Made by a program: the position numbers and the translations under genes. The notes beneath the pieces are model-generated. The model did no database searches, was not told where the DNA came from, and worked only from the letters and a program-made list of their open reading frames with translations. A stretch of 64,000 nucleotides of DNA from Eledone cirrhosa (lineage: Eukaryota), in assembly GCA_964016885.1 (NCBI GenBank), contig OZ024742.1:140616001-140680000 (forward strand), in the 5' to 3' direction. This document shows positions 8,867 to 43,600 of the stretch, piece after piece; positions within the stretch are counted from its first letter, which is position 1; every line of letters starts with the position of its first letter.

Positions 8867-9218
8867 CTAGTCACTCATGTCCATATCCAGCTGCTGAAGG
8901 TTTGCATCTGAAGCCAACTGTTCCCCTATACTAGAAGCCACGACAGTTTCACGTTCAGGACTGCCTTCTATGATTGTAGGTTCAGCAACTGTGGAAGGAG
9001 CATTGGCAACTGTATACACCTTCTCAGCCTTGCCCTCACCACTTACATAGCCTTTTTCCTCTTCATCATAGTCACGTGTGACACGAGTGCTGTCTGTTTT
9101 TGATGAGGATTTCTCTTCTTTTTCACTACGATGTTCCTTGTGTTTCTTCTTACTCTTGCTCTCCTTTTCACGGCTCCTCTCTCGACTTCTTTCTCTTGGT
9201 TCTTTCTTTTTCTTACTT
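8867..9218 (-). CDS. SRSF11: SRSF11-like terminal coding exon
   Basis: ttacag acceptor; SKKKKEPRERSRE...VTRDYDEEEKGY...QQLDMDMSD-TAG. Confidence 0.92.
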
Positions 9219-17571: not shown

Positions 17572-17608
<37 letters not shown>

Positions 17609-23600: not shown

Positions 23601-26600
23601 GATAAATATTATTCTTTTGTTATTAAGTTGAAAGTTAGTTATTTCACTAAATCTGAAAATCTCATAATTCTTGATTATTTTGATAATTATAACACAAAGG
23701 TAGAAATATGGACACAAAAGGGTTAAAATGCATGAATCTTTGCACTTCTAGAGAAGCTTGTTTAGGGAGGGTAAAAAACATTATAGGAGCATATGCTTTT
23801 ACCATTTTTATACTAATTTGCTCCAAACCGTCTATGCTTCTTTGGAACAAAACACCACATATTTTAATGAGTTCCTACTTCAATTAAAACTTTATAACAT
23901 AATTTTATATAAGATTTTGTTTTATGTTACAAATACCAATTTAATAATATTGTAATTTTAATAAACTTATTTCAAATTTTCCATTAATTAATTAAAATAC
24001 AATGTATTTCATTAGAAATCTGGTAATGAAAGGGTTCTGCACACCATCTTCCTTTGAATCCATCTTAACTTTTTCTTTTTAATTGTTTTGTGGAGAAGGG
24101 AAGGATAGTGTGTATAATGCTTTTCAGGGCCTCTGAAAAAGGTGAGGAGGAAGGGATACTGAAACTGGAGACTTGGCCCAAAAGCTTGCAACGTTATGAA
24201 CTCCACGAAAATTACCCAAGTAGGCCACAGAAGGATTTGGTTTCAGAATGCGAAAATTTAGAACAAATGCTGCTGTAAGGGATCTCTACTTGACTGGCAC
24301 ATTATTTTATTTTATCAACCCTGAAAAGGATGAAAGGCAATGAGTCTGCCAATCCACCACCTTTACAAAAATAATTTTAAAAAAAATCTGGCATCTACTG
24401 AAAAATCTTTATAATGAATAACGAATAAATTAACAGTGCCACATCAGTATATATACATACACATATATATATTTGATGTGTGTGCCCGAATGCAAATAAC
24501 CATAATAATGGTTTAAAAAATACAGGAACATTAACCTTGGAGATAGAAAATCGTAGACAGATGCCTCTATCCACTGTTCTGTCTACAGGAATACTTGACC
24601 CAATTTTCCCAAATATGGTAATTTGCATTGGGACACATATTTGAAATTTCCCCAATGATTCCTAAGTCAATTACTTTGTTTACAAATATGCTTAAATATG
24701 AATATATATATATTACATAAACATGAGCAAATAAACAGGTTCTATAGATATAGTGGATACTATGAAAAAAACAAAACTTTAAAAAATTTCCCTATATGCA
24801 TCAAAACAAGATGAAGCAAATAAAAAAAAGGACATTATTGAAAAGACATTTAAAATACCTAAAATGTTGCATGTGCCATTCATCATTGTGGTTTCTCATT
24901 TTGGCCTTGACCTCAACAGGTGACCTAGGAAATAATAAATTGTTTTACTAAGCAATGGCATGGCCCACCCCACCTTACAGGCATGACAGTGATAATATAT
25001 GGAAGTAAGTTGTCTCTGGCATCAAGGCATATATGTCATTTTTTTAAGGTTTCAAGAATTTCAAATATTTGTGAATGTTCTTTTATTCTTTATTTCTATT
25101 TATTTAATGATCAATGAAATAAATTACTGACTGTAATTTATCTAATCTAACACCATTAAGTGATTGGTGTTAGGTAGGGCATCCAGCTGCAGAAACCATG
25201 CCAATATATGGAACATATGAACACAGCATGGTATCTGAACTGCCTTGTCTTAGACCAAGATGACCTGTTCAACTTATGCCTGAATGGAACGCGGACATAA
25301 CATGATGAGGACAATCAAACTAACTACCAAGAATGTGTTAAATATTCAAATTGGTATATGTTATTTATTAAAGCGCTTAATAATGATTTTAAATACAATT
25401 TCAGTCATCACTTAAGAGTAAGATTAGTGATTGCTGATGCAACTATAGTCCAGGCACAGGGAACCTTTTTTGAGAAGTAGGCTGCATAGGATGTGGCTCA
25501 TCATAAGGTGGGCTGCACTACTAAAAAAAAATTCAAGGCAATTTTTAAATTAGACGTGCCATTCAGAATGCTAAATGGGCTGCAGTTTGCCCATGACTAT
25601 TATAGTCCAATCAATCTATCTGTTTCTATTCACAGTAAAATCATTTAAACAGACAATTGTTCATGACTGTCCAATTGATCTAATTTATATTAATTAGTTT
25701 AGACATGTAGTGTCATGTTTTTAGAACACTATAGGATCAGATAATTGCCACATAAACTATGACAATGTAACTTTAACCTTTTTCATATCAAACTGCCCTG
25801 GTTCTACAAATACAAAATGGTTTGTTTTATAGTTTTTCATTAATCTAAAACCTTTCATCATAATTCTATGCAAGAAGCTGTACGTTATATTTTAAACACA
25901 GCTTAATAACATATTACTAAATTTCTCCAAATTTTTGATTACTTTGAGTAATCAAAAATTTTTTGATGAGTTGAGAACCATAGGCAGTGTCTTTCATTAG
26001 AAATTTGATATTGAAAGGGTTAAAAATATATTTTATTCCACAAACACTAATAAAATGAATATTATTATTATTATATGAGATTCTGTAAATATACCAAATA
26101 GCCAAACTAATTTCATTGTTACTGTGGCTATCATTTCATCACATTCTATGTCTTTACCAGTATAGCGATGCACAAATTTGCTAATATCGTAATTTTGTCA
26201 GCATGTAATCTGCATTTGTGCAAGGTCAACCCGTTTCCTTGTTTTTGCAGACCTTCTGTATCTAGTACCGATGTCTTACAACTATACAGTGACAAAACTT
26301 TCTACACATTCATAGTCTGCTCTTTGCATGGGAAAAAAAACAAAACATTTTGTTCACAGAAAATTTCTCCCATCATTTATACTTTCAGTGGAACAGATAT
26401 AACACGCAAATAGACTGATTCCAATCTCATTTAGTGATTAGTCAATGGAGTTACCTTTTTGAAACCACCCTTGGTTTTATGATATAAAACTTTTAAAGTG
26501 TTTATTTTCATCTAAAAAACCTAACATCACAATTTTAGGTGGTGAACCTTTAACTTATGCTCCAAACACCAACTTAACGAGAAACTTTTTTTGTATTACA

Positions 26601-29600
26601 AAATCTCTCCAAATTCTTTATTTTCAAAATAATACAGCAATGTCTGTTATTAGAAATATGATAACTGAAGAGTTAATCTACCTATCTCACCATATTAACC
26701 TGGTAAAATAGATACCAGTTCAATTTCATGTTAAAATGATTGGCACATGGTTAAGTAACAACATCTGATTGTAAAATAAAAGGATTTACTCCAAGAAAAT
26801 TCAGTAACATTAAAATTCACACCATTCACTTCTGTTTAACATGGGAGATGAGTAAAAATAAACAAATATATATTGTCCTTGCCAATACAATTACTGCATT
26901 TGTTCTCTCTATGCACATACACAATGTTTTATTGTTACAGCTCACAGCTCTACTGTGTGCAAAAGGTTTAGCATAAGTACACTTTTCTTTCATGTTGTAA
27001 GGAGTGATTAAAATGGTTGGCACCAGAAAGGGCATCTGGCTGTAAAACCTCAAAAAAGGTCCTATGATGTATATGAAGCCTATTATAGTGCCCGCAAGGC
27101 ACTTAAAATGCTTCTAGTAGTTGTATAGTTAGAGCTCATGTTCATGTAGGTTTGGTTTAGCTGGGCTTCTACAAGGTTGCATCTCGATTTATTTAGGGTT
27201 TTGTGAAAAGACTACCTTCTAAGCTGAACACTAGTGTTAGTACTAATTTTTTTTCAGTGAACTGGAGCAGCATGAATGAAGTATCTTGCTCAAGGATAAC
27301 ATGCCACCTGGTCCATGAATCAAACCCATGACCATATGATTGTAAGTTCAACAACCTAACCGCAGATACTAAAGAAAGAACACATATTTTGTTAAAGAAA
27401 AATGTATAAATAAACCATTATACTAATACATTTTAAAACACAGCTTATGCAGGTATTGGTGCAAGAGACAGGATCAGTTATTCCCTGTAAATGTACAGAA
27501 CATTTTACTGAGCTTGAAAAAATAGTGTGAATGTGAGTGCATTAATTATAAATAACAGTGTATAGATTTTCACCTGGATCTAGTTCTGTGGTGACGAGGT
27601 CTGGAATGTGATCTGGACCTACGGGGAGACCTTTTCCTTGATCGTGATCGGCGATTTCGAGAGACAGAACGGCGACGAGAACGTGATCTTGAGTGTCTTT
27701 TGGGACTGGGTCTCGGTCTTGAACGGGACCTTGAGCGGGTTCGTGTGCGGCGCTTAGGTTTAGACTTAGATCGAGAACGAGAGTGACGTCGGCGACTTTT
27801 TGATTTGGACCGAGAACGGCTTCTCTTTTTATCTGTAATTTCTGAAAATAAAATCAAGGAAATGGAAGAGAATTGATTAAGAATTTCTTTCTTTTTTACA
27901 GACAAATATATTTCAGAACAGAAAGATAGACTACTTTTCATGTATTGATACAGCTGACACTTGATAGTTTTAGTCATTGTATGACAAGTCATGAGGGCAT
28001 GTGCCATATGACTTTTCATACACTATATGAAAACATTCGTTTATAAAATAGAACAAATTGTTTCTACTTTATTTTATCGACCCTGTAAGGATGAAAAGCA
28101 AAGTTAACCATGGCGGGATTTGAACTCAGACCGTAATTCTATGCTGCAAAGCATGGCGTCCGACCCTCTATTGATATTGCCAATCCACTGCTATTAACTG
28201 TAGAACAAATTAAAATATAGAATAATTTTGAGAAATTTAGTCAATCATATTGACCCTATATCAATTTTTCACGTCTGCTTCTTATTTCATTGAACCGCTG
28301 AGTTATTGGGCATAAGGAGACACATACACATATGTATATATATGTGTGTGTAAATATATGAAAAATGACCATGGGTTTTGCACCTAAAAAGTACCAATTT
28401 GAGGCACAACTCTGCAATGTGTTTTGTGGAAAACCAGCAGTGGTCCATGCATACTAGTCTCCCCATACCTTGTCACCGATTTTGTCCAAGGAAAAGGCAT
28501 AGGTCGTTACAGCTTGGCACCAGTTGCAACGCATTTCTACAGCTGAATGAACTTGAGCAATGTGAGATAAAGTGTCTTGCTCAAGAACACAACATGCCAC
28601 TCAGAACCTCAAAATTGTGCACCCAACACTAACTATTAAGTCATGTGCCCTCACTAGATATATACATAAACACACATATTTATATAAATAAAGAATAGGT
28701 TTTCTTTGAAAAATCATGACCATGCTCATGTTTGATAATTTTTTAATGGGATTTTCCATATTTTCTTATTAGTTCTTAATGTTTCGAGACCTTCACAACT
28801 CATCTTCAGAATAAGAATAGTAATAATGGTAATAAGTGGCATATTGTTCAGATGTTTTGCAGTGGACTAAGAAGAACATGTAAATACTATTAAAATCATA
28901 GACATCACAGTTTCCACCTACAAAATTTCACTCATAAGGCATTGGTTAACTCAAGGCTATAGTAGAATACCCATGCAGTGGGACTGAAAAAAACCCCCTT
29001 AGCCACACCTATTTAAGTAAAATATCATAGCTTGTTGCATTATTTCTTTTTCTGTAACTCAACTGTCAAATACACCAGTTAATTAATGAACCTTTTTGAC
29101 ACTGATCTGTCTGAAACTGCCTTTTGCTCTCCTCCTATCATAATTTTATGTAAGTACCAACTTAGTAATGAGCAAGATAGTTATAATACTAAATTCTTTA
29201 TTATTTTCAAAATTAACAGAAAATCATTGGCTGCAATTTTCATTATTAACAAGATTAATCAAATACCCCCCCCCCCCCCCCCCAATAATGATGGTATTAT
29301 TTACCTGGCTCTACAGCAGCAAGTATAAGAGACTGGGCCTCTTTCACTTTTTTCATAGCTTCCTCCAGTTCCCTCTGTGCAGTCTCCTGGCTTTTGTTCA
29401 CTGGTTTCACGATAGAACTGTTAGCATGGCTAACTCTGCAAATGTTAGAAATATTTTAGATGTTAATAAATTAAGAGAATTAGTATTGAATTAAGAGAAG
29501 AACTAATTTATTCACAGGAAATTTCACAATTGACTACACATCTTCAGTTAATTGACATATCCTAAAATTGTAAGCTGTGTATTTGGTTTCGAATAAGTAC

Positions 29601-32600
29601 ACTGCATTTCAGCATGTCATAGAAGCAACTAAAAGGGTTAACACCAAAAGATATACCCAACCATAAAACATTACTTCAAAAAAGACTCCATGATGAGCAT
29701 AAAACCTTTCATGGGTCTTGCAAGATTAACCCCTGCCACTAACAGGGAAAATGGCCTTAAAACACTGGCTGCTACATAAAGTTAAAAGTGAGCAAGCTAC
29801 TAGATTATTTGTTTTACTGATAACAATAAAAAGTCTTAATTTATGTGGTATAAATTTTGACTGACCTAGGACTAGATATCCTAGTGTTCAACTGTAGTAA
29901 TGTAATTCATCTATCAAAACTAAGAACTGCTTCAAACATTGTACAATTAACACTCTGAACATGCACTAAATGAAGGACTCATATACTGTATAAAGAGTGA
30001 AAATAATAATTGTTAATAATAATGAAAGTTTACTTCAAATTATACTGAAACTAAATTTTGACTATACATACATAATACAAACCCGCCAACCTCTAAAAAC
30101 CAAAACGGGAAGTACCATGAAAAAAAGTGCCCCAAAACAGGGAGAAATTATATAAAGAAAGCTATACTCATTTTCATAAGAGAAGACATCTCTCACCCAC
30201 TCCACAGTGGGTGGGAGATCTTCCCGTCAGATGGGGACAGTTGACAGGTCTGATAATATATATATATATTCTTCAATATACTTTGACTCATACTTATTTC
30301 ATAGATCTTGGTGGAAATGAACATAACATAATACATTTTATTATAAGTTATTTTTGTTTGATATACCAATTTATCTCAATTAATCAATAAAATAAACAAC
30401 GCTGCTGCTACCACCACCACCATCATCATCATCATTTAACATTCACTTTCCTTGCTAGCAAAAGTTAGGCAGGTTGTCAGACGCAGTATATATATATACA
30501 ATGGGTTCCATCTCTTTTTCTGTCAACTAAATTTCACTCACAGGGCATTAATTAACTCGAGGCTATAGTAAGATACATGGCTAAGATGTCATGCAATAGA
30601 ATCGAACCTGAAACCAAATATCTGTGAAGCTAAAATCTCAACTATACTGCAGCCTAACAATGATGATCAAGTTTCATGGTCATCAAAATCAAATTTAACC
30701 CTGCAATGTTCAAACTGGCCAGAATTCTCTACCTCTTTCTGTTGAAACTGGCTGTAATTGGTCGCTCAAACTGATGTTAAGGTATTGTTCTCAAAATAAA
30801 TACTTTCAAAATCTCATAGATTCGATATTATGTGAGGTAAGGCCTTTACCATGAAAATATAATAGTATATATAAAGAAATGTGAATGCTAAAGGGTTAAT
30901 AGTTACCCATGCTAGTGTGGAAGATGGAGGTTAAACGATGATGAATGTAATTATAGTGTTTTTCTTTACATATAGCAAAATTGAATTAACCCTTTTGATA
31001 TCAAACTACCTCTGTTTTTATGATACAAAACCTTTAATTTTAAAGGTGTTCAAATATAAATTAGAACCTTCTATTATAATTCTAGTGTAAAACTAATTGT
31101 TATGTCAACTTACTTGATTGGTCGTCCACCTAACATTGTGTTGTTATAGGTGAGGACTGTGGCAACTGCTCGTTGGTCAGTGAACTCTACAAAGGCACAA
31201 CGGGTTGGCATGTTCTCCTCGCCAGCCATACGGACATACTTCACTTCGCCCACTTGACTGAAGAAAGCTAAAAGTTGTTCAGCAGTTACCTGAAATCATG
31301 CAACACAAACCAAAAAAAGAAAGATAATAATAATTTTCAGTACACCCTCACCAAAGACGTTCAAGCAACATTTATATGAAGTTATTTAACAGCAACAAGC
31401 ATTTTAAGGTCATTTTCTCCTGACAAGGTAATGCTTAGCCTAGCAGACTCTTGGATAGGCTTCTCCATCACTACTCACTGGCAATAAATTCCTCTTCTAT
31501 TATCTTTAGCTATGAATTCCTTGGTCTTCAAATTCCTATATTTCTCTCCAGATTAATTTCCAACACTTCTCTCACCTAGTCACTCGTCTTCCCTCAACCA
31601 TCTCGTTCCTTTTCTCTTCACAACATTCATTACTGTCTATTTCCCCATAACTTTAACCCTTCTTCAACACATGACCCAATCATCTCATTCCATTTCTCTT
31701 CACAATATTCACCAATGGCTTTATTCATCTCTCCCAGTTACTTTCATCCTTCTTCAACACACGACTCAACCATCTCATTCCATTTCTTTTCACAACATTC
31801 TTCACTGGCTCTGTTACTCTCAACCAGTCACCTTCATCCTTCCACAACGCGACTCAACCATCTCATTCCAGTTTTCTCCACAACATTCATCACAGTCTCT
31901 ATTCCTATTATCCTCTGCAAAAGACCTCAAAAATGAGTATGATTATACAAAATATTTCCCAGATATAAACCACTTAAAGCAATCTTGTGTTCATTGTATT
32001 GCAACAACAGAATTATTGTAAATTTCAAATGTCATTTTGATTCTACATTGATTTAATTTTCTAACATACCTATTATTCCCCACTGATAACAGTTAAGAAA
32101 AGAAAATATTTGCTCACAAAAAAATATAAAATGAATCAAATATATTTAAGCTTTTTAATACCAATAAGCCTAAGACTGTTTCTATTTAAATTAAAATCAC
32201 TAATCATAATTTTATGCATGGAACTTTTTAAAGTGATATAAACACTTTGATACCAAACTGTTTGTTTTAAAGTGCTTATATTTAACTAAAAACATCAATG
32301 TTTTTACATCCATTTTTCCATGCTTGCATGAGTTGGATGGGTCCTTCTCAGCACAGCATCTCGCCATTTGTTGCGTCTCTGTGAGTCTTGTTGATTTGAG
32401 GTCAGCTCTCACCACCTCTGTCCAGGTCTTTCTTGGTCTACCTCTACTGTGGCTTCATTCCACTGGCACTTCTTCACCCATGCGTATCACATGTCCGTAC
32501 CAACGTAGTCTTCTCTTCTGCACACCACCTCGGATTCCTCTTAAACCCATTTTCTCCCTCAGTTCATCGAAGCTCTGCTTTTCTCTCACATTTACAATAC

Positions 32601-35600
32601 ACATTCAATGAAGCAGGGTTGCTTCATTTCTCTTCAGTTTATGCATGTCTGCTGCAGTCACTGCCCATGTTTCATTACCATGCTGCATTGCACACAAACA
32701 TCATACAGTTGTCCTTTTGTACGTAGGGAGAAACTTTTTGTTGTCAACAGCGGGAGCAGCTCTCTAAACTTCTTCCATCCTATCCTAGCTATTATGCTCT
32801 CAGAGTATCCTCCTCCACTGCTAATTATGTCACCTAGATAGCAGAAGCTACCAACAACTTCTATGGGGCCTTCCTGTGACTTGAGGAGGTTTATATCAGA
32901 CACTGTTCCCCTCAATTTCTCCTGTACATCTTCAACATATAAAGCCTTCCCTTCTTGTTAGTCTACCCATTATCCCACTACATCTCTTGTGCCCAAGGTT
33001 TATATTGTGTATACCATATGGAGTTTATGCCTACTCCTTTTCTACATATGGAGCAGGGCCACTTCCTTGAAGGGATCAGGGTCCTATCTTCTTTCCTACT
33101 CACTAGCACTTCCAACATAATTTTATGAAAGAACCTTCATTAAGTTATGTTCAAAACACCAGCTTAATAAGGAGAAATTAATTATATTATTTATCTCGCT
33201 CCAATTTATGATTATTTTCAAAATTATTTTAAAATTTCAGATTTTTTCTATTAGAAATGTAGTGATAAAAGGGTTAATAGAAAAAACAAACAAAAATAAG
33301 TTGCGCATTTCATTGGTGGTCATGAAAGGATTAAATAACTACTTACGGAGCTATCTATATTAAACACATAGACAGTTCGTCTAATCTCCTCTATTTTGCT
33401 GGGGTCTGTGGTTCCTGGCAAAGGTGGATATTGGGCTAAACCCAGAGCAGTCAAACGGGGATCATAAGTGGTGATAACTTGTCCATTTCCTTGACCAGTC
33501 ATCTAGTTTTGTAAAAAAAAAAAAAAAAAGAATATATACTGAACATAAACGGATATTATAAATCACAAAATGTGTATTTGATAGAAGTGTGTCAATGTAG
33601 ATTTTAGCCCTTTTATTACCAAAATGCTTGAAATTGTTCTTGATTCTACTATAGAAAGCTGTTTATTTTAAAGTGCTTTTATATTTATCTTAAAACCTTC
33701 CACCATAATTTTATGTAACAACTTTTGTGAAATAAAGCTCTAAAATGAGAAAGTTATTTTATGAAACTCCTCTAAATTCTTGATTATTTTCAAATGTCTT
33801 TCATTAGAAACATGGTAAGAGTTAAAGAAGAGAAAAATGTATATATAGGAATGTTTGGAGGTATTCATGCTTCACAAAGAAGAAATTTCAGCTCAAGCCA
33901 TACCATTTCAAACAAATCTAAACAAGGCTATAGGTTTGGATTACTGAGGGGTTATTTTTTAAATTAAAAACTTTTTGTTTTATGAAGTTAAGCATATGGT
34001 GATGTGAAAAGAAAGAATATATAATTCTACAATACAATTGAAGTTAGTGATTTAGCAAAGTTATTAGAGCGTAGGATTTGTTCTGGTCATTTGTGCTCTA
34101 AATTCAGATGCTACTGAAGCCAACTTAGCCTTTCACTTTTTCAGAAGTCAATAAATAAATAGCAGTACAGGGTAGTAGATTGGTGGAATTGTTAGAGTAT
34201 TGGTCAAGAACTGGGGCTTCTATTAATGACACCTCATAGGGGGCTGGCACATGTGTGAGTCCTAACAACAAAAACACAACCGAAAAGATGCTAACATACC
34301 TGGCTGACAACATTACTAGGCCATGCTGGCTGGCCTGGAATCATTCCAGCTATAGCTGAAGGAGCAAGCTGCAGAGCAGTAGTTTCATCTGGAATTTTCC
34401 CTAGAGTAATAGAAAAATTATATTGGAAATCATGAAAATAAAACAATTACATCAAGGGAAAATCCATCTATAAAAACACGGTATACTCTTTAAAGTGGAT
34501 GGCATTAGGAAGAACATCCAACCATAGAAACTACGTGAAGATGAAAGTTTATTTTGTATATTTAGTGAGACGTGGTTCCCTAACATATCAAGGAAGACAG
34601 TAGCTCTGATAAATACTGACTTGGTCTGTAACAAACTGTAACCCACGCCAGCATGGAAAAGTGAACATAAAATTATGATGATGAAACAAAAACTGTTATA
34701 TTCACTTTCCATTTACTTGGATGTCAAAATTTCCGCCCTATTCTTTGCAGCCCGACATCATGAAATAAATATATAGTGAAGTTAACAGTTTTTGCATTTA
34801 AAAAAAAAAATGTCTAAAATGACTCTTCCACAATGTAATTATATCAGTTTCAACACAGATTCAAATTAATTTACTTGCCAATCAACTACACATCTGAAAT
34901 AATTATAAAATATTAACTTAATTATTTTATTCAATATATCAGCTTTAACAAAATAAGTTTGAAAACTTATTTATCATGATGGGAATCAATGCATTTGCCC
35001 AACATGCAACCAAGTCTCCCTCAAAATCTGTTAATGTCTTTAAAAAAGACTCATTAGATAACAGAATCCTAGATATATAAAAAGACTGGTTGGATAGAAT
35101 ACTTTTGATTGTGTCCGTTTAGAGTAGTGAGGTCTTACAGAGCTGGTGACACACTAAAATGCACTCCATATACTTAGTAAAGTGATTGGTGACTGAATAG
35201 AGACAGCATAGTGTCAAAAAGATGTTTTAGTTCTTCCAAGGACATAATCTCTAGTGCTAGTGCCATGGTAAAATGCAAGTGGTATATTAAACCTATGCAA
35301 CATAGTTGGCATTAATAAGGGCATCCAACCACAAAAATTATACCAAAAATGGAATGTACGAGCAAGACATTGTCTTCTGACCCATCTATTAAGAACTGCT
35401 TTGGATTTTAACAACCTGTACAACCCATGCCAACATGGAAAGTGGACATAAAATGATGATAAATAAATGAGGAAAAAAGTGCGATAAATCCATTCTATGA
35501 CTGATGAGCTATATGGCAATTAATGTGGATTGTTTTAAGTGTTTACCATCCATTACTGGAACAACGATCAAAGCTCTGTCAATGAACACTGTATTGGTTA

Positions 35601-38600
35601 AATGAAGGGCTACCCCAACACTGCTTGGGTCTTCGAACTTCACGTAACATACTCGAGCTGATACTTGGGAGTCGGATTCACTGAAAGTAGAGAGCAAATA
35701 CTAATAAACAAACCAGTCAAAGATAAAATACATAAGACATAAAATTAAGTGGAAAGATGGACATCAAGTTAGTAGAAAGATGGTTATTTTACTTGGTTGA
35801 CATATTTAGATTAAAATAAGTGGAGATTTCACATACTTAACAGCCAGTAATGATGTAGTTAAAAATATCTAAAAACAAGCTTGTTAATCCAAATATTTGT
35901 AGCATCATTGAGGAAATTGGCAGTAAACTGAAGTAAAGATTTCCATTTTTAATTAATGCTGTTTTGTGCTTTTCAGCCATGTCTTGCTAATATGGTTTTA
36001 TGTGATATGGGGACAAAGAGTTAATACTGAAGTACTAAACACATTTAGTACATAACATAATTATATAATAAACACTATATACTAATACTAAAATAATACA
36101 TATATATAATAAACACTGTACATTATAACTGGTTCTGGAGACGCATGCAGCTCTTAATCATTTATCAATCTCCTGTAGATCTTAGGTGCACCAAATTTTA
36201 TATATATATATATTTCATTAAATCTGCAACCTAAATAACAGCCATAACTTATGACTAGGATTTGAAGCAATTTCAGCTAAAATTCTCAGCTAAAAATCGC
36301 ATTGAGTAAGAAAAAGTTAGGTTCATTTATGTTTTCTTGTATGTAATAAATTATGTTGTATTGGCAGTCTCAATTACATTTTTTAAAGCCAAAAAATGGC
36401 TCTTTAGATTGAAAAGGTTCCCCACCTTTGTACTAATACATACTAAACACTAAAATAGTATATAGCAAGGTTGACCAACGGAGGGCGATTTCAACTGTTG
36501 GGTGAGTGATGAGTAACTGAACAGAATATGATGAGCAATTAGAAATTTTGGTGGGCAATATAGGATTTTGAGTATTAACTTTTAGTATTCACATTACTCT
36601 ATATATACTATTATATTTTCATGGTAAAGGCTTTACCTTGCATAATAATCTCACATAATATCGAATCTATGAGATTTTGAAAACAAAACCTTAACATCAG
36701 TTTGAGCGACCGGTTACTGCCAGTTTCAACAGAAAGAGGTAGAGAATTCTGGCCGGTTTTAACATTAAAAGGTTAAGTAGATATTTCAGCATAAGTTACC
36801 CCCAAAAAATATTCAAAGGAGATATGCAGATATCTTGTACAAAATAATTTTAAAAAATAGGAGGCTAAACAGGAATAACTGTGCATGTTTGATTGTATTG
36901 ATCACCAAGTGATTGCAACGCTCTTGTGTTCTCTTATTTGTGGAAAACAGACTTTGAGTAACAATATAACTAGTTGAATGAAAATGGTAACAGGATGATT
37001 GCGCCGTACAACATTGCGTTACTGGTCACAAAGGCTGGTAAGTCTCCCACTATAGGAGAAACATTACTTAAACTTGTTATTGAAGAAGTTCTCTCGACTG
37101 TAACACATAAAATGTCTGCGGCAATTATCAAGACAATTCCACTTAGTAATAACAATTTCTTCACGTATAAATGAAATGGCGACTGACATCAAACATCAAC
37201 TCATTCAGAATCTCCAGAGTTTTTAATTTCGACACAAATTGATGAATCAACAGTTGAAAGCAGTCACTGCTTGATAATGGTATATATTGTCAAAAGACAA
37301 CTGTGTTGTCTGTTTTTCGAACTGTTTGATACAATAATAAATTTGTTTCAAAACCCTCCACTATCCACTTCTCTGATTGCTTCAAAATGTGATATTTTTT
37401 TCCTTAACAACATATTCACCAAACTAAATGATCTCAGTATGTTATTGCAAGGAAAGCAAAAGACACTTGTCAACTGTAAATCATCCATTGCTGCCTTCAT
37501 TTCTAAATTAAAGCTAAATATGATGAACAGCTATCTACTATTCAACCAACAAGGGAGCATTAATAGGGTCACTTGATTTGTTAGAAACAGCAACCAAATC
37601 TCCATTAAATTATACCCAACTGTCTTTAACATCTGAATGTCCTGTACCACATGAAACCACATTAGCAAGACCTTGAATAGTACAAAATAGCACTATGACT
37701 GCATCACATTAACATTTTTAAAAGTTGTTACTTTAATACTGCAAATTTTTCACATTGACCTGTCCACTAGGAAAGATATGAACATTTAAATTAACAAATC
37801 TGTTTTAAAATATTTTCTGCTAAATCATTACAGAATCTTAAATAAAAAAGAATATATTAGACAAAAGAAGAGCAAGTATGTTATAAATTATCAATAATCA
37901 CGAAAAGTATTAAAATCAATGATTTTGTTTTTACCAACAACTGTCTTGGTATAAGCTTGTGAGACATGGACACTCACAAAGCTTGGAAACCAGCTTGACA
38001 GATTGTATTCCAACATGTTACAAATGGTTCTCAACATCACTTGAAAAAACCACAGTCAATATAGAACTTTAGGATAGTCTGCCAGTATTAACTGAAAAAA
38101 TAGCAATTGGCAGGTCATCCTGAAGAAACAGCATCAAATCTAATGTTATGGCAGTCAACACATGGACAGATTAACCAGAGGGAAATCCACTAACTTCATT
38201 GTCATACTTCAGTAAGACACTAGATTGAAGACTGTATCGGAAATATGAATAATGATGAAAGACAGACATCTGGTATGGGTATGTTTCTTTTGTTTAATTG
38301 GAAGATCAGCTGAGATGAGATATATTAGACTATGTGGTTTCTGACATATAAATGGCTATGACTGGAACACTTATGATGATGGCTTTGTTCAATCAGAGTT
38401 GTTTTGGAGCTAAGCAGCAATAATAACCACATGAAATAGTAGCCAGCCAAGTCCCCCTTTATACAACCCAACACCTTAAAAAAGAAGGTCATATTACTGA
38501 ATGGGTACACTATACCAAGGATAAAAACTGGATGGTCATGGTGAGAATACATTTGAGCATAGGATTGCTTGATTAGGGCTGACCTAAACAGCCACAAACT

Positions 38601-41600
38601 ACTATGACCGTCACTTGCAATCTAGTATGCTTTTCTCAATGAAGTTGCGAGTAAACAAGCGTGCTCTTGACCTCTTACTCGATCCAACAGAACATCCAGG
38701 ATATGACAGCTAGGAGAGATGGCTGCACCAACATTGGGCAAGTCCTTTTTGACCTCAGTAAAATTAGAGCGCAGAGCTGGAACCAATATTCAATGCTCTA
38801 ATATTTCTGCCAAATCGATTGCCTTCAACAACTTATAAAATGTGTAAAAACAAAGGTTTTTTTTTTCACCCACTTATTTCAAGGAGGCTCGTGGGGGATA
38901 GAGTCTTATCAGAAACAACTGGCTCCAAATGATCTGGATGGATCCCCGGGTGAAACCAACCAGGCTATTGGATGTTATCCAACCATCTTGCTCATGGTCT
39001 ACCTCTTTGACTCCTGTTAGTGGTTTTGCTTGTAAAATCTGTTGAGTGATTCTTTCCTTAGTCATTCTAACCACATGTCCATAGAACAGGGGCTGTGATC
39101 TTATGATATGAAGAACTAGCTGCTCTACCTGGAGGGACTCTCTGAGCTATGCACCTTATTGAGCAACATTACTCTGACGACTCTTCAGAGGAACCTCATT
39201 TTGAGCGCTTGTATTCTTTCTGTCATTAACCAAGATTCATGAGTCATGTTAAAAGCTTTAAATAGAGATAGTATGCTCTGGTTGATTAGTGTGTGCTGAG
39301 TAGCCTGGATTTCTAGAAAGACACACAAATGTGGCAATCAGGAGTGGTAAACCCAATATTTTAAAAAAAGGGATGAAAGTGTGCTCTAATTATAGAGGAA
39401 TCTTCTTATTTAGCCTCTCTGCTAAGTGTCTAGCAAAGAAATCTAAAGATATTGTCAAGTAGCTGATGAACAGTATGGTTTTTGCCCCAGATGTATCAGA
39501 GCCAAACAAATATTCGTCCTGTGGCATGTGTTCGAGAAATTGTGGGAGTATTGCCAGGTGTATGCTTGCTTCATGGACTTCAAAAAGGTATACAACTGTG
39601 TTCTACAGGATTTGTGGAAGGTTCTGCACAAGGTACTTTGAAATCTTTATATGAATGTCCTAGTATTTGTTTGAAATGGTGTTAAATCAAAGCCATTCAA
39701 GGTGGGAGTCAGAATCTGCCAAAGGTGTGTACTGTCACCTCTCCTGTTCATAATTTTCATGAACAGGACTGATACACCCAGTCGGGTTGGAAATGGTATC
39801 AAAACCAGCATGTCAGAAACAGTTAGCTGATACTAGCAAATGACATGGTGCTACTTAACTTATCAGAAGGAATAAAAGTCAGTACACACTGAAAGGAAGG
39901 ATGTCCAGCTGTAGAACACATGCCTAAAACTGCCATTAAATACTGGCTTGGTCTGCAACAACCTGTCTAATCAAATGCTAGGAAGGAAAATGGGATTAAA
40001 TGATGCTGATGAAAAGTGAAATTTAGCAAAATCTTTTCTAAACCTAATCTTGTAGAATTGCTGCACTCTTTTTGCCACTAATATCACTAAATGACACCAC
40101 CACACAATATAACCAATGTATTTGCTCAGTCTACCTCCTCCAACTAATACACATACATTTTATGACTACAAAATTTCACTCACAAAGTATGAGCCAACCT
40201 GCAGCTATAGTAGAAGACACTTGCCAAAAGTGCCATACAGTAGTATAACCGAAACCATGTGGTTGCAGAGCAAACTTTTCAACCACATGACCACGCTTCC
40301 TTGCATCTACTAGGTGGTAACAGAAGTTATCTACACTTTACAAACAATATCAATTTTTGTCTTTTTCAAAATCTCATTGAAAGTTGCATCTCCTCTTCTA
40401 GTTACAACTGGTGTCTCCCTTTATTAGGCTCCAAGCTAAACATTTTCTCTAATAATTCCTTTTCCAAAACTTATTTCTAACTACATAGTCAACTATTCAA
40501 ATTAATTTGAATATATTAAAAGCAGTGAGCATAGAATTACAATTTTTTAGTGCTTATATAATTGTTTCTACTTTTGGCACAAGGCCAGCAATAACTCCAG
40601 TGTATTACTGGAACTTTATTTTATCAACCCCTGTAAGGATGAAAGGCAAAGTTAACCCCGGCAGGATTTGAACTCATGATAAAGGGCCGTAACTCTATGC
40701 TACTAACCATGGCGTCCAGACTAAAATCAAAACCATTTAAACTATTTCCTTACATATGGGAGATAACTTCAGAAATGCTTCCATCTTATTAGGCTTCTTC
40801 AGTAAAATACAGGCTTCAATGCACTTGTCAAAGTATTGATGTTCTCTGCATTGAATGTTAACGCTAACTTAACTATTGTTTTGCATGTAATTGAGTAATC
40901 TCTTCCGTGATGTATTCAAATTGAACAGATATATATCACTTCTTCCGATCAGAATAAAGACACTGGCTTTCTTCTTCAAAGTAATAATGTAGAGAGGAAC
41001 AAATACAATTGTAGAAATTTTTTAGAATCGAAACATGATCATCACATCCACATGACAGAAACATTGCATTTTAGGCAATGTTTCTAGACATAAGCTCGAT
41101 CTGGGAGCTGGATGGCGATTGAGGAACACGGACAAACAAATGATCTTTGCATGTCCCTCCGAGACTGGTGAGGTTGGTGCGGTGTACCCGCATCTTGGAC
41201 ATCTGTAAGTAAAATGTGGGCAAGGAGGGAGACACGCGTGTTTGGTATGAATGTTTGCAATAAAACAAATACCGTTATAAACACCAGTGGTTCACCCAGG
41301 CACCTCTTCCGATGCCAAGAAACCGAGAACATGTTGATTTAAAAAAATAAAGTTTGTACAGCGAGTTGAAAATGCAAGGATTATTTCAATGTCAAGAATA
41401 AAAACAACGAATCACATGCATTAAAATAAATGTAAATCTATATTATAACTGTATATAGCCTTGTACCTCAAATGAAAGAAAAATAAAGAGGTGGAGGCAA
41501 GTGTTCTAAAATCCATTCATTCACACCAGGGTGTTGTGTACGTTTTTCACTCTCAATTTATATTGAATAAACCGAATATTATTACTTATTTTGTCCTTAA

Positions 41601-43600
41601 AATAATTACGATAACGTTTTAAACACCTGGGGAATGAGATAAGATTAGAATCACAATATTGATAAGGAGGTTGCGAGTTTTAAAGATCTGCTACTAACAT
41701 GCTCATATCTATCGCTACAAGTCAAACTACTAAATGTACAAGCATACTAATGAAGATATTACTGTTGCCTTAAGCTAATGACTTGGGACTATAGATTTAA
41801 GACTCAACAAGTGTACATAATGTCGTCAACACAAAGTTTTTTGTGAAATGAGAGAAAATATTCAAAAAATATGCAAGAACAAATATTAGGGGGAAAAATT
41901 CGTTTCTCAAAGAGCGGTGGATTGTTGGAATGCTTTGCCAGAAAATGTGGAGCACTCGACCACTGTAAATGTTTTTAGATCTTTTTAAAATATGATAAAT
42001 TGTTAATTTTGCAACAGAAAATATTAAACATGGAGACTAGCTAACAATCAATCAAGCAGCAGTAGGTACATATTTCAGTCTAGTTTACCATACTAGCGAG
42101 ATATTAATAACAACTTGGGATTATAGATTTAAGAGACAGCAAGTATTTCTATACAGGTATCGAATAATTTATCCGAGAAATAAAATTTTATTTATCTGTT
42201 AAATAAAATTTATACATATAGTTTTTACTTTAATTCGTATTATTTTCATCCTATATATTGTGGTATTCTATAGTTACCTTAACAATGATATATCACTTTA
42301 AAGTTCCCACGTTGTTCCGGCCCTAATAGTTTTAACCTAAACTTTGATATGGTTTGGTTCGAAAACTTGACAGCAATCATACAAAAAAGATCAATATAAG
42401 AAGCACTGGAATCCAGAGAGCGAATCGAACACATCGTATTAATAATTTGTATAGACCCTACTTTACAAGTGTATTATTTTGTATTTGTTAAATACAATTT
42501 ATTTATTTCACGATCTTCGGTCCCAAGTTTGCTGGATAAATGCTTCGGTACCTGTATATATTCTACTATCTTTTAGAGAGAAAGACAAAAATATTTAATC
42601 AATTCCTTTTATATTTATACAGTTAAATGATGACAATAAACATTTTATTTTTCCTATGTGTTTTCCAGTTTGCAAGTGAATAAATTGAATACTCACCTGT
42701 TAATAAATTTGATACATTCAAGACTGCAAGCGAAGAAATATCAATTGAGTATATTGAAAACTCTTCACATCTTTTAACATTTTATTTACTTTATTTGATT
42801 CTTTCTTAACTATAAACATTTGAAATTTACTTTATAGTTGGCTAAGTATTAAATTATCTGTTCGCAACATATACCACAACAGGATTAAAGTCTCGAACGT
42901 ATAATTTGAAAAATATTCATTCGATCACGGGAAAACACTTTAAGACACTTAAGAATTTAATATCTAAACTTATAAAGAAGATTTAAAGTAATTTGCAAAA
43001 ATTCATTATATATATATATATAAATATACAAAGGAAGCCGTTTATAATCACAGATAATACTTTCAAGAAGTTATCACGATTATTGAGTCCTAAACACGAC
43101 CAGGATAGTGTTATATCCTCTGCTTAACATTACCAGCCAGTTATCGAAAAGGCTCCGCCGAGTGATCATTATAAGCGGCTTCCACTGTATATGTATATGT
43201 ATGTATGTGTGTATATATATATAATATACACATACATACATATACATTCATATTGGACGATCGTTTGCAAAAAGGGTCTCATGACGAATTTGATGTTAAC
43301 ATTAATACAAATAATCAAAAAGGAAGATACGAATAAAAAGTGCTAAATATATAATACATTTTTTTTGTTAAATCTTAAACAAGTTAGTTATACGAGAAAT
43401 TAAAATCTTAACAAAAGACAAGAATGGCAAACACATGACGTTATATGAACTCACTCTGATGGGTACATACGGACTTCCTCGATCCTTCCAAGAAAGGAAA
43501 ATAAGGTTTTCATTTGTTCTTTAATTGCTCCAGGTGCTACATTTGTAACTTGTATAACTTTTGTATTGAGTTTACAATCAGCAACCGTTGAACCAGCCAT
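8867..43600 (-). CDS. SRSF11: SR splicing factor of the SRSF11/SREK1 (Srp54) family; two RRMs plus RS domain
   Basis: 13 core exons join with matching phases. Motifs: VIQVTNV, RVCYVKF, HLTNTVFIDRALIVVP, KIEEIRRTVYV, QVGEVKYVRMAG, AFVEF, EEAMKKVKEAQSLI, RS repeats, TPPKAYSARRSR, VTRDYDEEEKGY and terminal DMDMSD. Start context caaccATGG. Probably a single pro-ortholog of vertebrate SRSF11 and SREK1. Confidence 0.92.
9558..10265 (-). mobile_element. Non-autonomous Helitron-like element with internal ~190-bp tandem repeats
   Basis: Subterminal hairpin tacccag-cgttgc-ctgggta (9568-9587) just inside a (C/T)TAG|T-like end on the - strand. Three repeats of 'gctgccacgc.gtccctgaacaa..aa..aaa..ataaagc'. 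Confidence 0.6.
10424..10522 (-). CDS. SRSF11: SRSF11-like RS exon (99 nt)
   Basis: attccag acceptor; RNRPARNPRRRSTSPPRNRRSRSRSGSRHKSS; AG|gtattt. Confidence 0.87.
12001..12060 (-). CDS. SRSF11: SRSF11-like RS exon (60 nt)
   Basis: caacag acceptor; SHEKRSRSRTPSKKSRRSH; AG|gtcagt. Confidence 0.85.
12509..12783 (-). mobile_element. CORE-type SINE copy with internal deletion
   Basis: TSD ttgaaat at 12502-12508 and 12784-12790; interrupts an AT-rich MITE. Confidence 0.85.
13318..14452 (-). mobile_element. 5'-truncated RTE-clade LINE (RT C-terminal region, 3' UTR, (GAT)n tail)
   Basis: Uninterrupted 273-aa frame with [34 protein letters not shown] 3' UTR follows, ending in (cat)n on the + strand at about 13318-13340. 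Confidence 0.9.
14470..14778 (+). mobile_element. CR1 LINE 3'-end fragment (same family as 61170-62072) nested in a MITE
   Basis: Close match to about 61805-62070, including the cattttcattattatt tail; flanked by ttaaaa. Confidence 0.8.
15293..15442 (-). CDS. SRSF11: SRSF11-like RS exon (150 nt)
   Basis: ctttcag acceptor; SMKRRSRSRSRQKSPVKKKYISPSPPKLTRECSLPLKDDDKDSSPERKS; AG|gtaggt. Confidence 0.85.
17606..17916. repeat. Long near-perfect inverted repeat
   Basis: Arms 17606-17736 and 17773-17916; 36-nt spacer. Confidence 0.92.
18024..18364 (-). mobile_element. CORE-type SINE copy inserted in a (TA)n tract
   Basis: Near-identical to 60646-60980. Confidence 0.85.
18854..19172. repeat. Palindrome of two head-to-head RTE/SINE 3'-tail fragments
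   Basis: Centre gccaaccac-gttgtaaat-gtggttggc; (cat)n and (gat)n tails at the outer ends. Confidence 0.85.
20157..20207 (-). CDS. SRSF11: SRSF11-like RS exon (51 nt)
   Basis: ttaacag acceptor; RTPPKAYSARRSRTPP; CG|gtatgt. Confidence 0.87.
21053..21376 (+). mobile_element. CORE-type SINE copy (opposite orientation)
   Basis: Reverse complement of the 18024 and 60646 copies; gatgatgat tail. Confidence 0.85.
21895..21972 (-). CDS. SRSF11: SRSF11-like RS exon (78 nt)
   Basis: ttacatag acceptor; TRHPRSRSRGRKSRSPHRKRSRSRT; AG|gtatat. Confidence 0.87.
22402..22640. mobile_element. Second, older and very abundant TTAA-flanked AT-rich MITE family
   Basis: ttaa(c)ccttttgatacc...atggtaatgaaaggg(t)taa. 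Diverged copies near 5342, 6914, 25773, 30986, 33605, 49330, 50890 and 58275. Confidence 0.6.
24859..24924 (-). CDS. Candidate frame-preserving cassette exon of the SRSF11-like gene
   Basis: atttcctag acceptor, AG|gtattt donor, 66 nt, phase 2-2, open: (R)SPVEVKAKMRNHNDEWHMQHF. Confidence 0.55.
25451..25599. mobile_element. hAT (Buster/Charlie-like) MITE
   Basis: CAGGCACAGGGAAC...GTTTGCCCATGACTA termini; 8-bp TSD ctatagtc/ttatagtc with central TA. Confidence 0.6.
27574..27841 (-). CDS. SRSF11: SRSF11-like exon 7 (RS domain start)
   Basis: ttttcag acceptor; ITDKKRSRSRSKSKSRRRHSRSRS...HHRTRS; AG|gtgaaa. Confidence 0.9.
29305..29435 (-). CDS. SRSF11: SRSF11-like exon 6
   Basis: tttgcag acceptor; VSHANSSIVKPVNKSQETAQRELEEAMKKVKEAQSLILAAVEP; G|gtaaat. 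Confidence 0.92.
30695..30899. mobile_element. piggyBac-like MITE copy
   Basis: ttaaccctg...aaagggttaa; homologous to 48922-49138. Confidence 0.78.
31114..31289 (-). CDS. SRSF11: SRSF11-like exon 5 (RRM2)
   Basis: tttcag acceptor; VTAEQLLAFFSQVGEVKYVRMAGEENMPTRCAFVEFTDQRAVATVLTYNNTMLGGRPI; AA|gtaagt. Confidence 0.93.
31590..31900. repeat. ~90-bp minisatellite, about 3.5 copies
   Basis: 'caaccatctcattcc' and 'ttcacaacattca' recur at about 90-bp spacing. Confidence 0.75.
32290..33110 (-). mobile_element. Older degenerate copy of the same RTE LINE family
   Basis: VVGSFCYLGDIISSGGG...[12 protein letters not shown], with a decayed upstream Cys/His finger region. Confidence 0.8.
33347..33502 (-). 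CDS. SRSF11: SRSF11-like exon 4
   Basis: MTGQGNGQVITTYDPRLTALGLAQYPPLPGTTDPSKIEEIRRTVYVFNIDSS; TCC|gtaagt. Confidence 0.92.
34300..34400 (-). CDS. SRSF11: SRSF11-like exon 3
   Basis: ctctag acceptor; KIPDETTALQLAPSAIAGMIPGQPAWPSNVVSQ; CAG|gtatgt. Confidence 0.9.
35547..35680 (-). CDS. SRSF11: SRSF11-like exon 2 (RRM1 C-half)
   Basis: ctttcag acceptor; ESDSQVSARVCYVKFEDPSSVGVALHLTNTVFIDRALIVVPVMD; G|gtaaac. Confidence 0.93.
36575..36776. mobile_element. piggyBac-like MITE copy
   Basis: ttaactttt...aaaggttaa; homologous to 48922-49138. Confidence 0.75.
36974..37540 (+). pseudogene. hAT (Buster/Charlie-type) transposase relic
   Basis: YNIALLVTKAGKSPTIGETL, IKTIPLSNN, MATDIK, and IFTKLNDLSMLLQG..IAAFISKLKL motifs, broken by frameshifts and deletions. 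Confidence 0.8.
39300..39860 (+). mobile_element. Degenerate LINE reverse-transcriptase fragment (RTE-like)
   Basis: PIFKKGD..CSNYRGI, EQYGF, and GV..QRCVLSPLLF-like motifs with frameshifts. Confidence 0.65.
42154..42554. mobile_element. Tc1/mariner-like MITE
   Basis: TA flanks. Imperfect 27-bp TIRs CAGGTATCGAATAATTTATCCGAGAAA and CAGGTACCGAAGCATTTATCCAGCAAA. Confidence 0.65.
42697..42723 (-). CDS. Candidate 27-nt in-frame microexon in SRSF11-like intron 1
   Basis: tttcttcgcttgcag|TCTTGAATGTATCAAATTTATTAACAG|gtgagt; phase 2-2, no stop; inserts LECIKFINS. Confidence 0.5.
43455..43600 (-). CDS. SRSF11: SRSF11-like exon 1 (start, RRM1 N-half)
   Basis: MAGSTVADCKLNTKVIQVTNVAPGAIKEQMKTLFSFLGRIEEVRMYPS; donor GA|gtgagt. 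Confidence 0.92.

What the first reader, a model, noticed from the sequence alone, without database searches (positions are those of the whole stretch)
42697..42723. Candidate 27-nt microexon inserting 9 aa into RRM1 loop 3 of the SRSF11-like factor
Seen: on the - strand, a strong acceptor (tttcttcgcttgcag, with UGC at the 3' splice site) and a consensus donor (CAG|gtgagt) bracket exactly 27 nt. The phase (2-2) matches the host intron and there is no stop. It would change ...RMYPSD-ESDSQVSARVCYVKF to ...RMYPSD-LECIKFINS-ESDSQV..., an insertion between beta2 and RNP1/beta3. Established: neural microexons are 3-27 nt, depend on SRRM4/eMIC-domain proteins and upstream UGC motifs, and mammalian SRSF11 is a cofactor of that programme; the beta2-beta3 loop often shapes RRM RNA binding. 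Inference: a feedback loop in which a microexon regulator's own RNA-binding domain is switched by a microexon, possibly in neurons.
Basis: partly seen in the sequence, partly recalled or inferred. Interest (0 to 1): 0.75.

Follow-up and report, generated by a model that had tools for sequence, protein, structure and literature searches.

The report
Octopus splicing factor's optional nine-residue loop
This 27-base stretch matches an optional mini-exon that public gene models of three other octopuses include in some transcripts and skip in others; it is predicted to add a short helix to the first RNA-binding domain of a splicing factor and likely tunes that factor in some tissues, but nerve specificity and self-regulation are untested.

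Summary
The microexon is real. The gene is the single octopod SRSF11/SREK1 gene with two RRMs. Of 21 full-length octopod database isoforms, 14 carry the identical nine residues and 7 skip them; both forms occur in O. bimaculoides, O. sinensis and O. vulgaris. The one RNA-like run of this organism shows only the skipped junction. AlphaFold keeps the RRM fold and models the insert as a low-confidence helix between beta2 and beta3. The regulatory story is unshown: the genome has an eMIC exon, but the only UGC is the acceptor's own UGCAG, and the upstream UCUC element bound by SRSF11 in mammals is absent. No tissue data were available. A second, 18-nt microexon lies in the RS domain (11849-11832). 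The scan had not noted this exon before, only similar octopod microexons in other genes. Verdict: new member of a known kind, already in gene models, not found in print.

The parts
42697..42723 (-). Microexon 1, 27 nt, phase 2-2; adds LECIKFINS to the beta2-beta3 loop of RRM1
   Evidence: Sequence; identical peptide in 14 of 21 octopod database isoforms; modelled as helix 49-57
42724..42760 (-). Acceptor region: 35-nt AG-free zone, branch-point-like CTCAAT at -26, 7-nt pyrimidine run, UGCAG; no UCUC within 93 nt
   Evidence: branch point is a motif match only
42691..42696 (-). Donor GTGAGT after CAG (near the top of this gene's donors)
43455..43600 (-). Exon 1 CDS (start codon, beta1, alpha1, beta2 of RRM1); transcript reaches at least 43621
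35547..35680 (-). Exon 2 (RNP1/beta3, alpha2, beta4 of RRM1); joined directly to exon 1 in run X1
8867..43600 (-). Whole SRSF11/SREK1-family gene, 14 ordinary exons plus 2 microexons, 670 aa with all included; RRM1, RRM2, RS domain, KE-rich tail
   Evidence: single copy by exon 1 and exon 2 searches
11832..11849 (-). Microexon 2, 18 nt, phase 2-2, in the RS domain (FLLSY plus a split codon); acceptor also UGCAG, donor TTA|GTAAGT
   Evidence: present in 10 of 21 octopod isoforms

Best explanation
The 27 bases match an optional, frame-keeping exon that gene models of three other octopuses include or skip; it is predicted to add a short helix to the beta2-beta3 loop of the first RRM of the single octopod SRSF11/SREK1 protein, and likely tunes that domain's RNA or protein contacts in a tissue-biased, most likely nervous-system-biased, way without unfolding it. 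Shown: splice sites, frame, both isoforms in database models, skipping in one RNA-like run of this organism. Predicted: intact RRM fold with an extra helix. Inferred: inclusion in this species, tissue bias, and any effect on binding. RRM1 keeps only one of the three usual RNA-stacking aromatic residues (IQVTNV, ARVCYVKF; consensus recalled), so its loop 3 likely carries more of the specificity than in a standard RRM.
For: 14 of 21 octopod isoforms carry the same nine residues, 7 skip them, with both forms in each of three Octopus species. The window's species lies outside that trio (18-20 amino acid differences against 0-3 among them) and still encodes 9 of 9 identical residues between intact splice sites. 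Run X1 has a 1538-nt contig joining exon 1 straight to exon 2 (length equals the sum of exons 1-12 without the microexon), while 5 of 6 and 6 of 7 RefSeq isoforms of O. bimaculoides and O. sinensis include it: both forms appear to be abundant somewhere. The loop length is constrained in the family: 130 of 147 distinct spans are within 2 residues of the skipped form. Models: strands 40-46 and 67-73 flank a helix at 49-57 with the exon; no helix without it. Microexons are preferentially included in neurons (PMC10551640, passages), and the genome has an eMIC-type exon.
Against: No junction read for inclusion was seen in this organism (one RNA-like run, contigs only, tissue not on record). No tissue data at all. 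Counts of database isoforms are not inclusion levels, and the O. vulgaris models may not be independent of the RefSeq ones. The protein is 97% conserved overall, so 9 of 9 identity is only what coding constraint would give, and no neutral rate could be measured. The modelled helix has low confidence (block pLDDT 59-68, residues 60-62 under 50), rests on 3 insert-bearing rows of 44, and is no more amphipathic than shuffles (53% score as high). Family members with loops 4-11 residues longer exist, so the site tolerates insertions.
Confidence: 0.5

Rival explanations
1. One reading: the exon is switched on in neurons by the eMIC form of Srrm234, and the longer SRSF11-like protein in turn changes microexon splicing, including its own.
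For: Length 27 nt, frame-keeping, strong donor. eMIC-type exon in the genome, over Pfam's cut-off. Both microexons of the gene end their acceptor in UGCAG against 1 of 13 other acceptors (Fisher p 0.03, small and partly post hoc). RRM1 corresponds to the only RRM of mammalian SRSF11. Mammalian SRSF11 cooperates with SRRM4 (as stated in PMC8797185 and a 2026 preprint, passages). UGC is not strictly required for SRRM4 response (10.1101/2024.09.17.613571, section 10).
Against: No UCUC within 93 nt upstream of either microexon, though the enhancer is described as UCUCUC-N1-50-UGC. AG-free zone (35 nt) and pyrimidine tract are not longer than at ordinary exons (18-115 nt). UGC within 20 nt is also at 4 of 13 ordinary acceptors (p 0.14). 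No short Srsf11, Srek1 or Srp54 exon in the fly and mouse tables of PMC8797185. A cofactor role of the invertebrate two-RRM protein is not shown.
Confidence: 0.12
2. The exon is alternatively spliced in many tissues and is tolerated in a surface loop, with little effect on function.
For: Most database isoforms include it (14 of 21), which fits broad inclusion. The cis-elements are unremarkable. Longer loops occur in other family members, such as all 7 scallop isoforms seen. Octopod models of this gene show several other small splice variants.
Against: Peptide and splice sites are kept across four octopod species. Loop length is otherwise tightly held. Run X1 shows clean skipping.
Confidence: 0.25
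3. Inclusion disables RRM1 (the helix covers the RNA-binding sheet or blocks a partner), giving a dampened or dominant-negative factor that still has RRM2 and the RS domain.
For: The insert sits 8 residues before RNP1 and has four large hydrophobic residues; the Pfam RRM score falls from 74.2 to 67.0 bits with it.
Against: The fold is kept in the model; the included form is the commoner one among gene models.
Confidence: 0.09
4. The exon is used in other octopuses but is silent or only noise in this species.
For: Only the skipped junction was seen in the one RNA-like run.
Against: Intact consensus splice sites and 9 of 9 identical residues; contigs drop minor variants, so absence is not shown.
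Confidence: 0.04

Closest known systems
RefSeq/GenBank isoforms of octopus SRSF11/SREK1 (included: XP_014784123.1, XP_036361435.1, CAI9727260.1; skipped: XP_014784125.1, XP_036361437.1, CAI9727259.1)
   Same: Same gene, same place, identical nine residues, both forms modelled.
   Different: These are unexamined gene models; no tissue, regulation or function attached. The window's species is a more distant octopod.
eMIC (SRRM3/4, Srrm234)-dependent neural microexons of bilaterians (PMC8797185; 10.1101/2024.09.17.613571; passages read)
   Same: Short, frame-keeping, strong donor, a UGC near the acceptor, eMIC-type exon present in the genome.
   Different: No upstream UCUC, no long AG-free zone or distant strong pyrimidine tract; neural inclusion and eMIC dependence untested.
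TIAR-a/b (17 aa within RRM1) and TIA-1a/b (11 aa at the start of RRM2) (PMC4284772, passages)
   Same: A small alternative exon changes an RRM of a splicing regulator; isoform ratios vary by tissue and TIA-1 isoforms differ in splicing activity.
   Different: Unrelated protein family, vertebrate, exons longer than 27 nt; exact loop position in TIAR not checked here.
Microexons within splicing regulators: Drosophila fne microexon under Elav control (PMC10551640); C. elegans rbm-25 22-nt microexon (10.64898/2026.09.14.751627)
   Same: A regulator of neural or microexon splicing carries a microexon itself, so the feedback idea has precedents.
   Different: fne's changes localisation; rbm-25's lies downstream of the RRM and is predicted to cause a premature stop. 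Neither is an in-frame insert inside the RRM.
Mouse Srsf11 and Srek1 alternative exons (table S2 of PMC8797185: Srsf11 64 nt 'Neural' and 117 nt; Srek1 106 and 309 nt)
   Same: The family is itself regulated by alternative splicing, in part neurally.
   Different: None is 27 nt or shorter; no vertebrate sequence seen here has an insert in this loop.

Membership tests
Alternative coding microexon | 3-27 nt between AG and GT, frame-keeping | tested here: met
Alternative coding microexon | Both included and skipped transcripts exist | tested here: met
   14 included, 7 skipped of 21 octopod isoforms; skipped junction in run X1. Inclusion in this very species not seen.
Alternative coding microexon | Conserved in related species, not repeat-derived | tested here: met
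   9 of 9 residues identical in three Octopus species; single genomic match. Decapodiform cephalopods could not be examined.
Neural, eMIC/SRRM4-dependent microexon | Higher inclusion in neural than other tissues | not testable with these tools
   Four runs of one study, none on record as RNA, no tissue label
Neural, eMIC/SRRM4-dependent microexon | eMIC-domain regulator encoded in the genome | tested here: met
   PF15230 match over cut-off at L002 (29.3 and 31.8 bits); one exon only, expression unknown
Neural, eMIC/SRRM4-dependent microexon | UGC between branch point and AG | tested here: inconclusive
   Only UGC is at -5, overlapping the acceptor; 4 of 13 ordinary acceptors have one within 20 nt
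Neural, eMIC/SRRM4-dependent microexon | Upstream CU-repeat element, long AG-free zone, distant strong pyrimidine tract | tested here: not met
   No UCUC in 93 nt; AG-free zone 35 nt; longest pyrimidine run 7 nt. These are enrichments in fly and mammal, not absolute rules.
Neural, eMIC/SRRM4-dependent microexon | Inclusion depends on eMIC protein | not testable with these tools
   Needs a minigene or knockdown
SRSF11/SREK1 (Srp54) family | N-terminal RRM with the family motifs, RS domain, best hits in the family | tested here: met
One-to-one SRSF11 ortholog | Single RRM and grouping with vertebrate SRSF11 apart from SREK1 | tested here: not met
   Two RRMs as in SREK1, one in lemur SRSF11; RRM1 tree of 28 rows leaves molluscs, SRSF11 and SREK1 unresolved; single copy in the genome

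The most novel reading that the evidence does not exclude
Octopods evolved a neuron-specific, eMIC-driven pair of microexons in their only SRSF11/SREK1 gene, one reshaping the RNA-binding loop of the RRM that matches SRSF11's sole RRM and one breaking the RS domain, so that the microexon programme rewires its own cofactor; scallops may have gained a separate insert at the same spot.
Probability: 0.12. Interest if true: 0.7.

Novelty: new member of a known kind. Interest (0 to 1): 0.36.

Why it matters
Cephalopod nervous systems are known for RNA-level diversification, yet no paper found here describes their microexons gene by gene. A conserved optional insert in the RRM loop of a general splicing factor could shift many downstream splicing choices at once, and it is cheap to test with existing octopus tissue RNA-seq. 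If it proves neural and eMIC-dependent it would be a rare in-frame feedback on a microexon cofactor. As it stands it is one more octopod microexon already present in gene models.

Tried and rejected
RNA evidence for inclusion: no RNA holder listed; laying the four runs showed X1 to behave as RNA and X2-X4 as DNA, and X1 had no contig on the microexon. Contigs drop minor forms, so this is not absence. A depth of 7.8 for X1 in the bin holding the microexon did not recur and was paralleled in the DNA runs; a 22-nt repeated word at 42621-42642 is the likely cause, so it was rejected as evidence. Squid, cuttlefish or nautilus orthologs: none named among the 120 listed of 1046 hits, the 97 short hits or the 150 representatives. 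Metagenome scan for intron 1 of relatives: 4 loci, three intronless family members and one unrelated RRM gene, uninformative. Third consensus hit at 40204: in a repeat, in no isoform seen. Amphipathic helix idea: not supported. Solved structures: 33 sequence matches, none to this family's RRM1, best stretches all on RRM2; fold search gave generic tandem-RRM proteins. Spans 17 and 24 residues longer (P0205, P0218) look like intron read-through from DNA contigs and were not counted as inserts; spans 8-10 shorter were not examined. First exon list had four boundaries off by one base, corrected; the donor scores are superseded. Three primary papers (Torres-Mendez 2019, Raj 2014, Irimia 2014) were not held, so their content is cited only through other papers. 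No complex prediction was run, as no binding partner is claimed.
Full report
Observation. On the minus strand, exon 1 runs from the ATG at 43600 to 43455 and ends in GA|GTGAGT; a 27-nt segment at 42723-42697 lies between TTTCTTCGCTTGCAG and GTGAGT; exon 2 starts at 35680. Inclusion gives RMYPSD-LECIKFINS-ESDSQV, skipping gives RMYPSD-ESDSQV. A plain consensus scan over the gene's 34,235 nt found 3 such candidates on the sense strand, 2 on the other strand and 1.4 on average in 60 shuffles, so the pattern alone would not be convincing. The 201 bases around the exon match only themselves in the genome.

The gene. Homolog searches name it as the octopus SRSF11/SREK1 splicing factor. I mapped 14 ordinary exons and 2 microexons between 43600 and 8867, all with AG and GT ends and an open frame in the four include/skip combinations. 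Exon 1 and exon 2 each have one match in the genome. The protein has two RRMs like SREK1, whereas lemur SRSF11 has one, which corresponds to RRM1 here. A tree of 28 RRM1 rows does not resolve molluscs against SRSF11 and SREK1, so it is best called the single ancestor-type gene of both. The window's protein differs from O. bimaculoides, O. sinensis and O. vulgaris at 18-20 positions, from Argonauta at 34, while those three differ from each other at 0-3: the organism is an octopod outside that trio.

The exon is real and optional. Among 21 full-length octopod isoforms held, 14 contain the nine residues, letter for letter, and 7 lack them: O. bimaculoides 5 of 6 RefSeq isoforms include it (a further UniRef entry skips), O. 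sinensis 6 of 7, O. vulgaris 3 of 6, and the single Argonauta model skips (one of 16 members of the largest cluster was not listed). That RefSeq isoforms rest on RNA-seq junctions is recalled knowledge, and the O. vulgaris models may borrow from them. In this organism only four runs of one study hold the gene, none labelled RNA. X1 behaves as RNA: a 1538-nt contig of depth 96 joins exon 1 directly to exon 2, and its length equals exons 1-12 without the microexon. So skipping is shown here, and inclusion is inferred from the intact sites and the identical peptide. Contigs drop minor forms and the tissue is not on record.

Structure. AlphaFold models from alignments of 44 and 41 sequences keep the four-strand, two-helix RRM in both isoforms. 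With the exon, a helix at residues 49-57 appears between strand 40-46 and strand 67-73; without it the loop is a coil. Confidence there is low (block pLDDT 59-68) and the helix is not amphipathic beyond shuffles. The placement in the beta2-beta3 loop is thus supported. RRM1 has Q and V at two of the three positions where RRMs usually have stacking aromatic residues (consensus recalled), and the Q is invariant in the alignment, which suggests, by inference, that loops matter more than usual for its binding. No solved structure of this family's RRM1 was found.

Family context. Of 405 proteins held, 316 span beta2 to beta3, giving 147 distinct spans; 130 are within 2 residues of the skipped form. 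The octopod +9 form is unique in sequence. Scallop (Mizuhopecten) has an unrelated +11 in all 7 isoforms seen, three unnamed proteins have +6 to +8, and a horsehair worm has +4. Whether these are exons is unknown. Read-through fragments of vertebrate SREK1-type genes break at the same place, which suggests the host intron is old. No squid, cuttlefish or nautilus sequence was identified.

Regulation. The genome has an exon matching the eMIC-containing Pfam family over its cut-off. In flies, eMIC targets show long AG-free zones, UGC near the acceptor, longer UCUC-rich tracts and strong branch points (PMC8797185, passages); in mammals the enhancer is UCUCUC-N1-50-UGC, with SRRM3/4 tied to UGC and SRSF11 among the binders (10.1101/2024.09.17.613571, passages and section 10). 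Here the AG-free zone is 35 nt (ordinary exons 18-115), the longest pyrimidine run is 7 nt, there is no UCUC in 93 nt, and the only UGC is the acceptor's UGCAG. Both microexons have UGCAG against 1 of 13 other acceptors (p 0.03), but a UGC within 20 nt occurs at 4 of 13 (p 0.14). The same preprint found UGC in 74-79% of targets and not strictly required, so the code neither proves nor excludes eMIC control. My estimates: neural bias about 0.45, eMIC dependence about 0.3, a true feedback loop about 0.12.

Second microexon. An 18-nt phase 2-2 exon at 11849-11832 adds a hydrophobic hexapeptide in the RS domain; 10 of the 21 isoforms carry it, independently of the first. Its last, split codon gives Tyr here and Phe in the other species.

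Literature. Full-text searches for microexon + octopus (3 listed of 4), cephalopod + microexons + alternative splicing (1), SREK1 + octopus (0), octopus + alternative splicing + SRSF11 (0), microexon + SRSF11 + RRM (10 listed of 11), microexon + RRM + loop 3 (1) and SREK1 + microexon (8) gave no title or abstract start describing this exon (most seen as listings only). The 20-species preprint 10.64898/2026.09.05.749416 includes O. bimaculoides and does not mention SRSF11 or SREK1 in its main text (passages); its supplements were not seen and may list the exon. The tables of PMC8797185 list mouse Srsf11 exons of 64 and 117 nt and Srek1 exons of 106 and 309 nt, and Srp54 only as sample names. 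Precedents for the idea: TIAR and TIA-1 RRM inserts (PMC4284772, passages), the fne microexon (PMC10551640, passages), and the rbm-25 microexon (10.64898/2026.09.14.751627, passages). PMC12825443 (passages) mentions SRSF11 variants lacking parts of the RRM or RS domain but no loop insert in the passages shown. Gonatopoulos-Pournatzis 2018 was not read; it is cited through these papers.

Earlier notes of this scan. Nothing on this exon, nearby or by sequence. Unchecked notes describe similar optional microexons in octopod MICU1 and myosin II, and a 12-nt exon in the same RRM loop of a different splicing factor. They suggest this is a recurring kind of finding; I did not test them.

Verdict. A real, conserved, alternatively spliced microexon in the RRM1 loop of the octopod SRSF11/SREK1 factor: a new member of a known kind, already in gene models and not found described. 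The feedback reading stays possible but has no direct support. Interest 0.36.

Noticed in passing
window 11849-11832 (-): Second microexon of the same gene, 18 nt, in the RS domain, with a UGCAG acceptor and a long U-rich tract; in 10 of 21 octopod isoforms.
   Followed up: partly
P0033-P0035, P0239-P0242 (scallop Mizuhopecten yessoensis): An unrelated 11-residue longer loop at the same place in RRM1 in all 7 isoforms seen; may be a separate 33-nt exon or an exon extension.
   Followed up: partly
L002:1501-1644 (-), G000:C22: Exon matching the eMIC-containing SRRM C-terminal family; the rest of the Srrm234 gene was not mapped.
   Followed up: partly
window 24939-24925 (-): O. sinensis and O. 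vulgaris isoforms extend exon 8 upstream by 15 nt (SLLFP); the window has a matching upstream AG and the same residues.
   Followed up: no
window 15442-15293 and 12060-12001 (-): Exons 11 and 12 of the RS domain are skipped or shortened in some database isoforms, and two O. vulgaris models read on past the exon 12 donor to an early stop; contig X1-1 ends at about the exon 12 boundary by length.
   Followed up: no
window 54437-54652 (+): Open frame ending in a TPR-like segment (resembles SGTA-type co-chaperones, recalled), probably an exon of a gene lying head to head with the splicing factor gene.
   Followed up: no
window 14467-13634 (-), 52563-53350, 61239-61925 (+), 32237-32957: Fragments of LINE-type reverse transcriptase frames and many SINE-like repeats in introns and flanks (very high depth in DNA runs at 36450-36730 and 40470-40750).
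   Followed up: no
L003-L005: Intronless SRSF11/SREK1-family genes on metagenome contigs, spanning both RRMs without a break.
   Followed up: no
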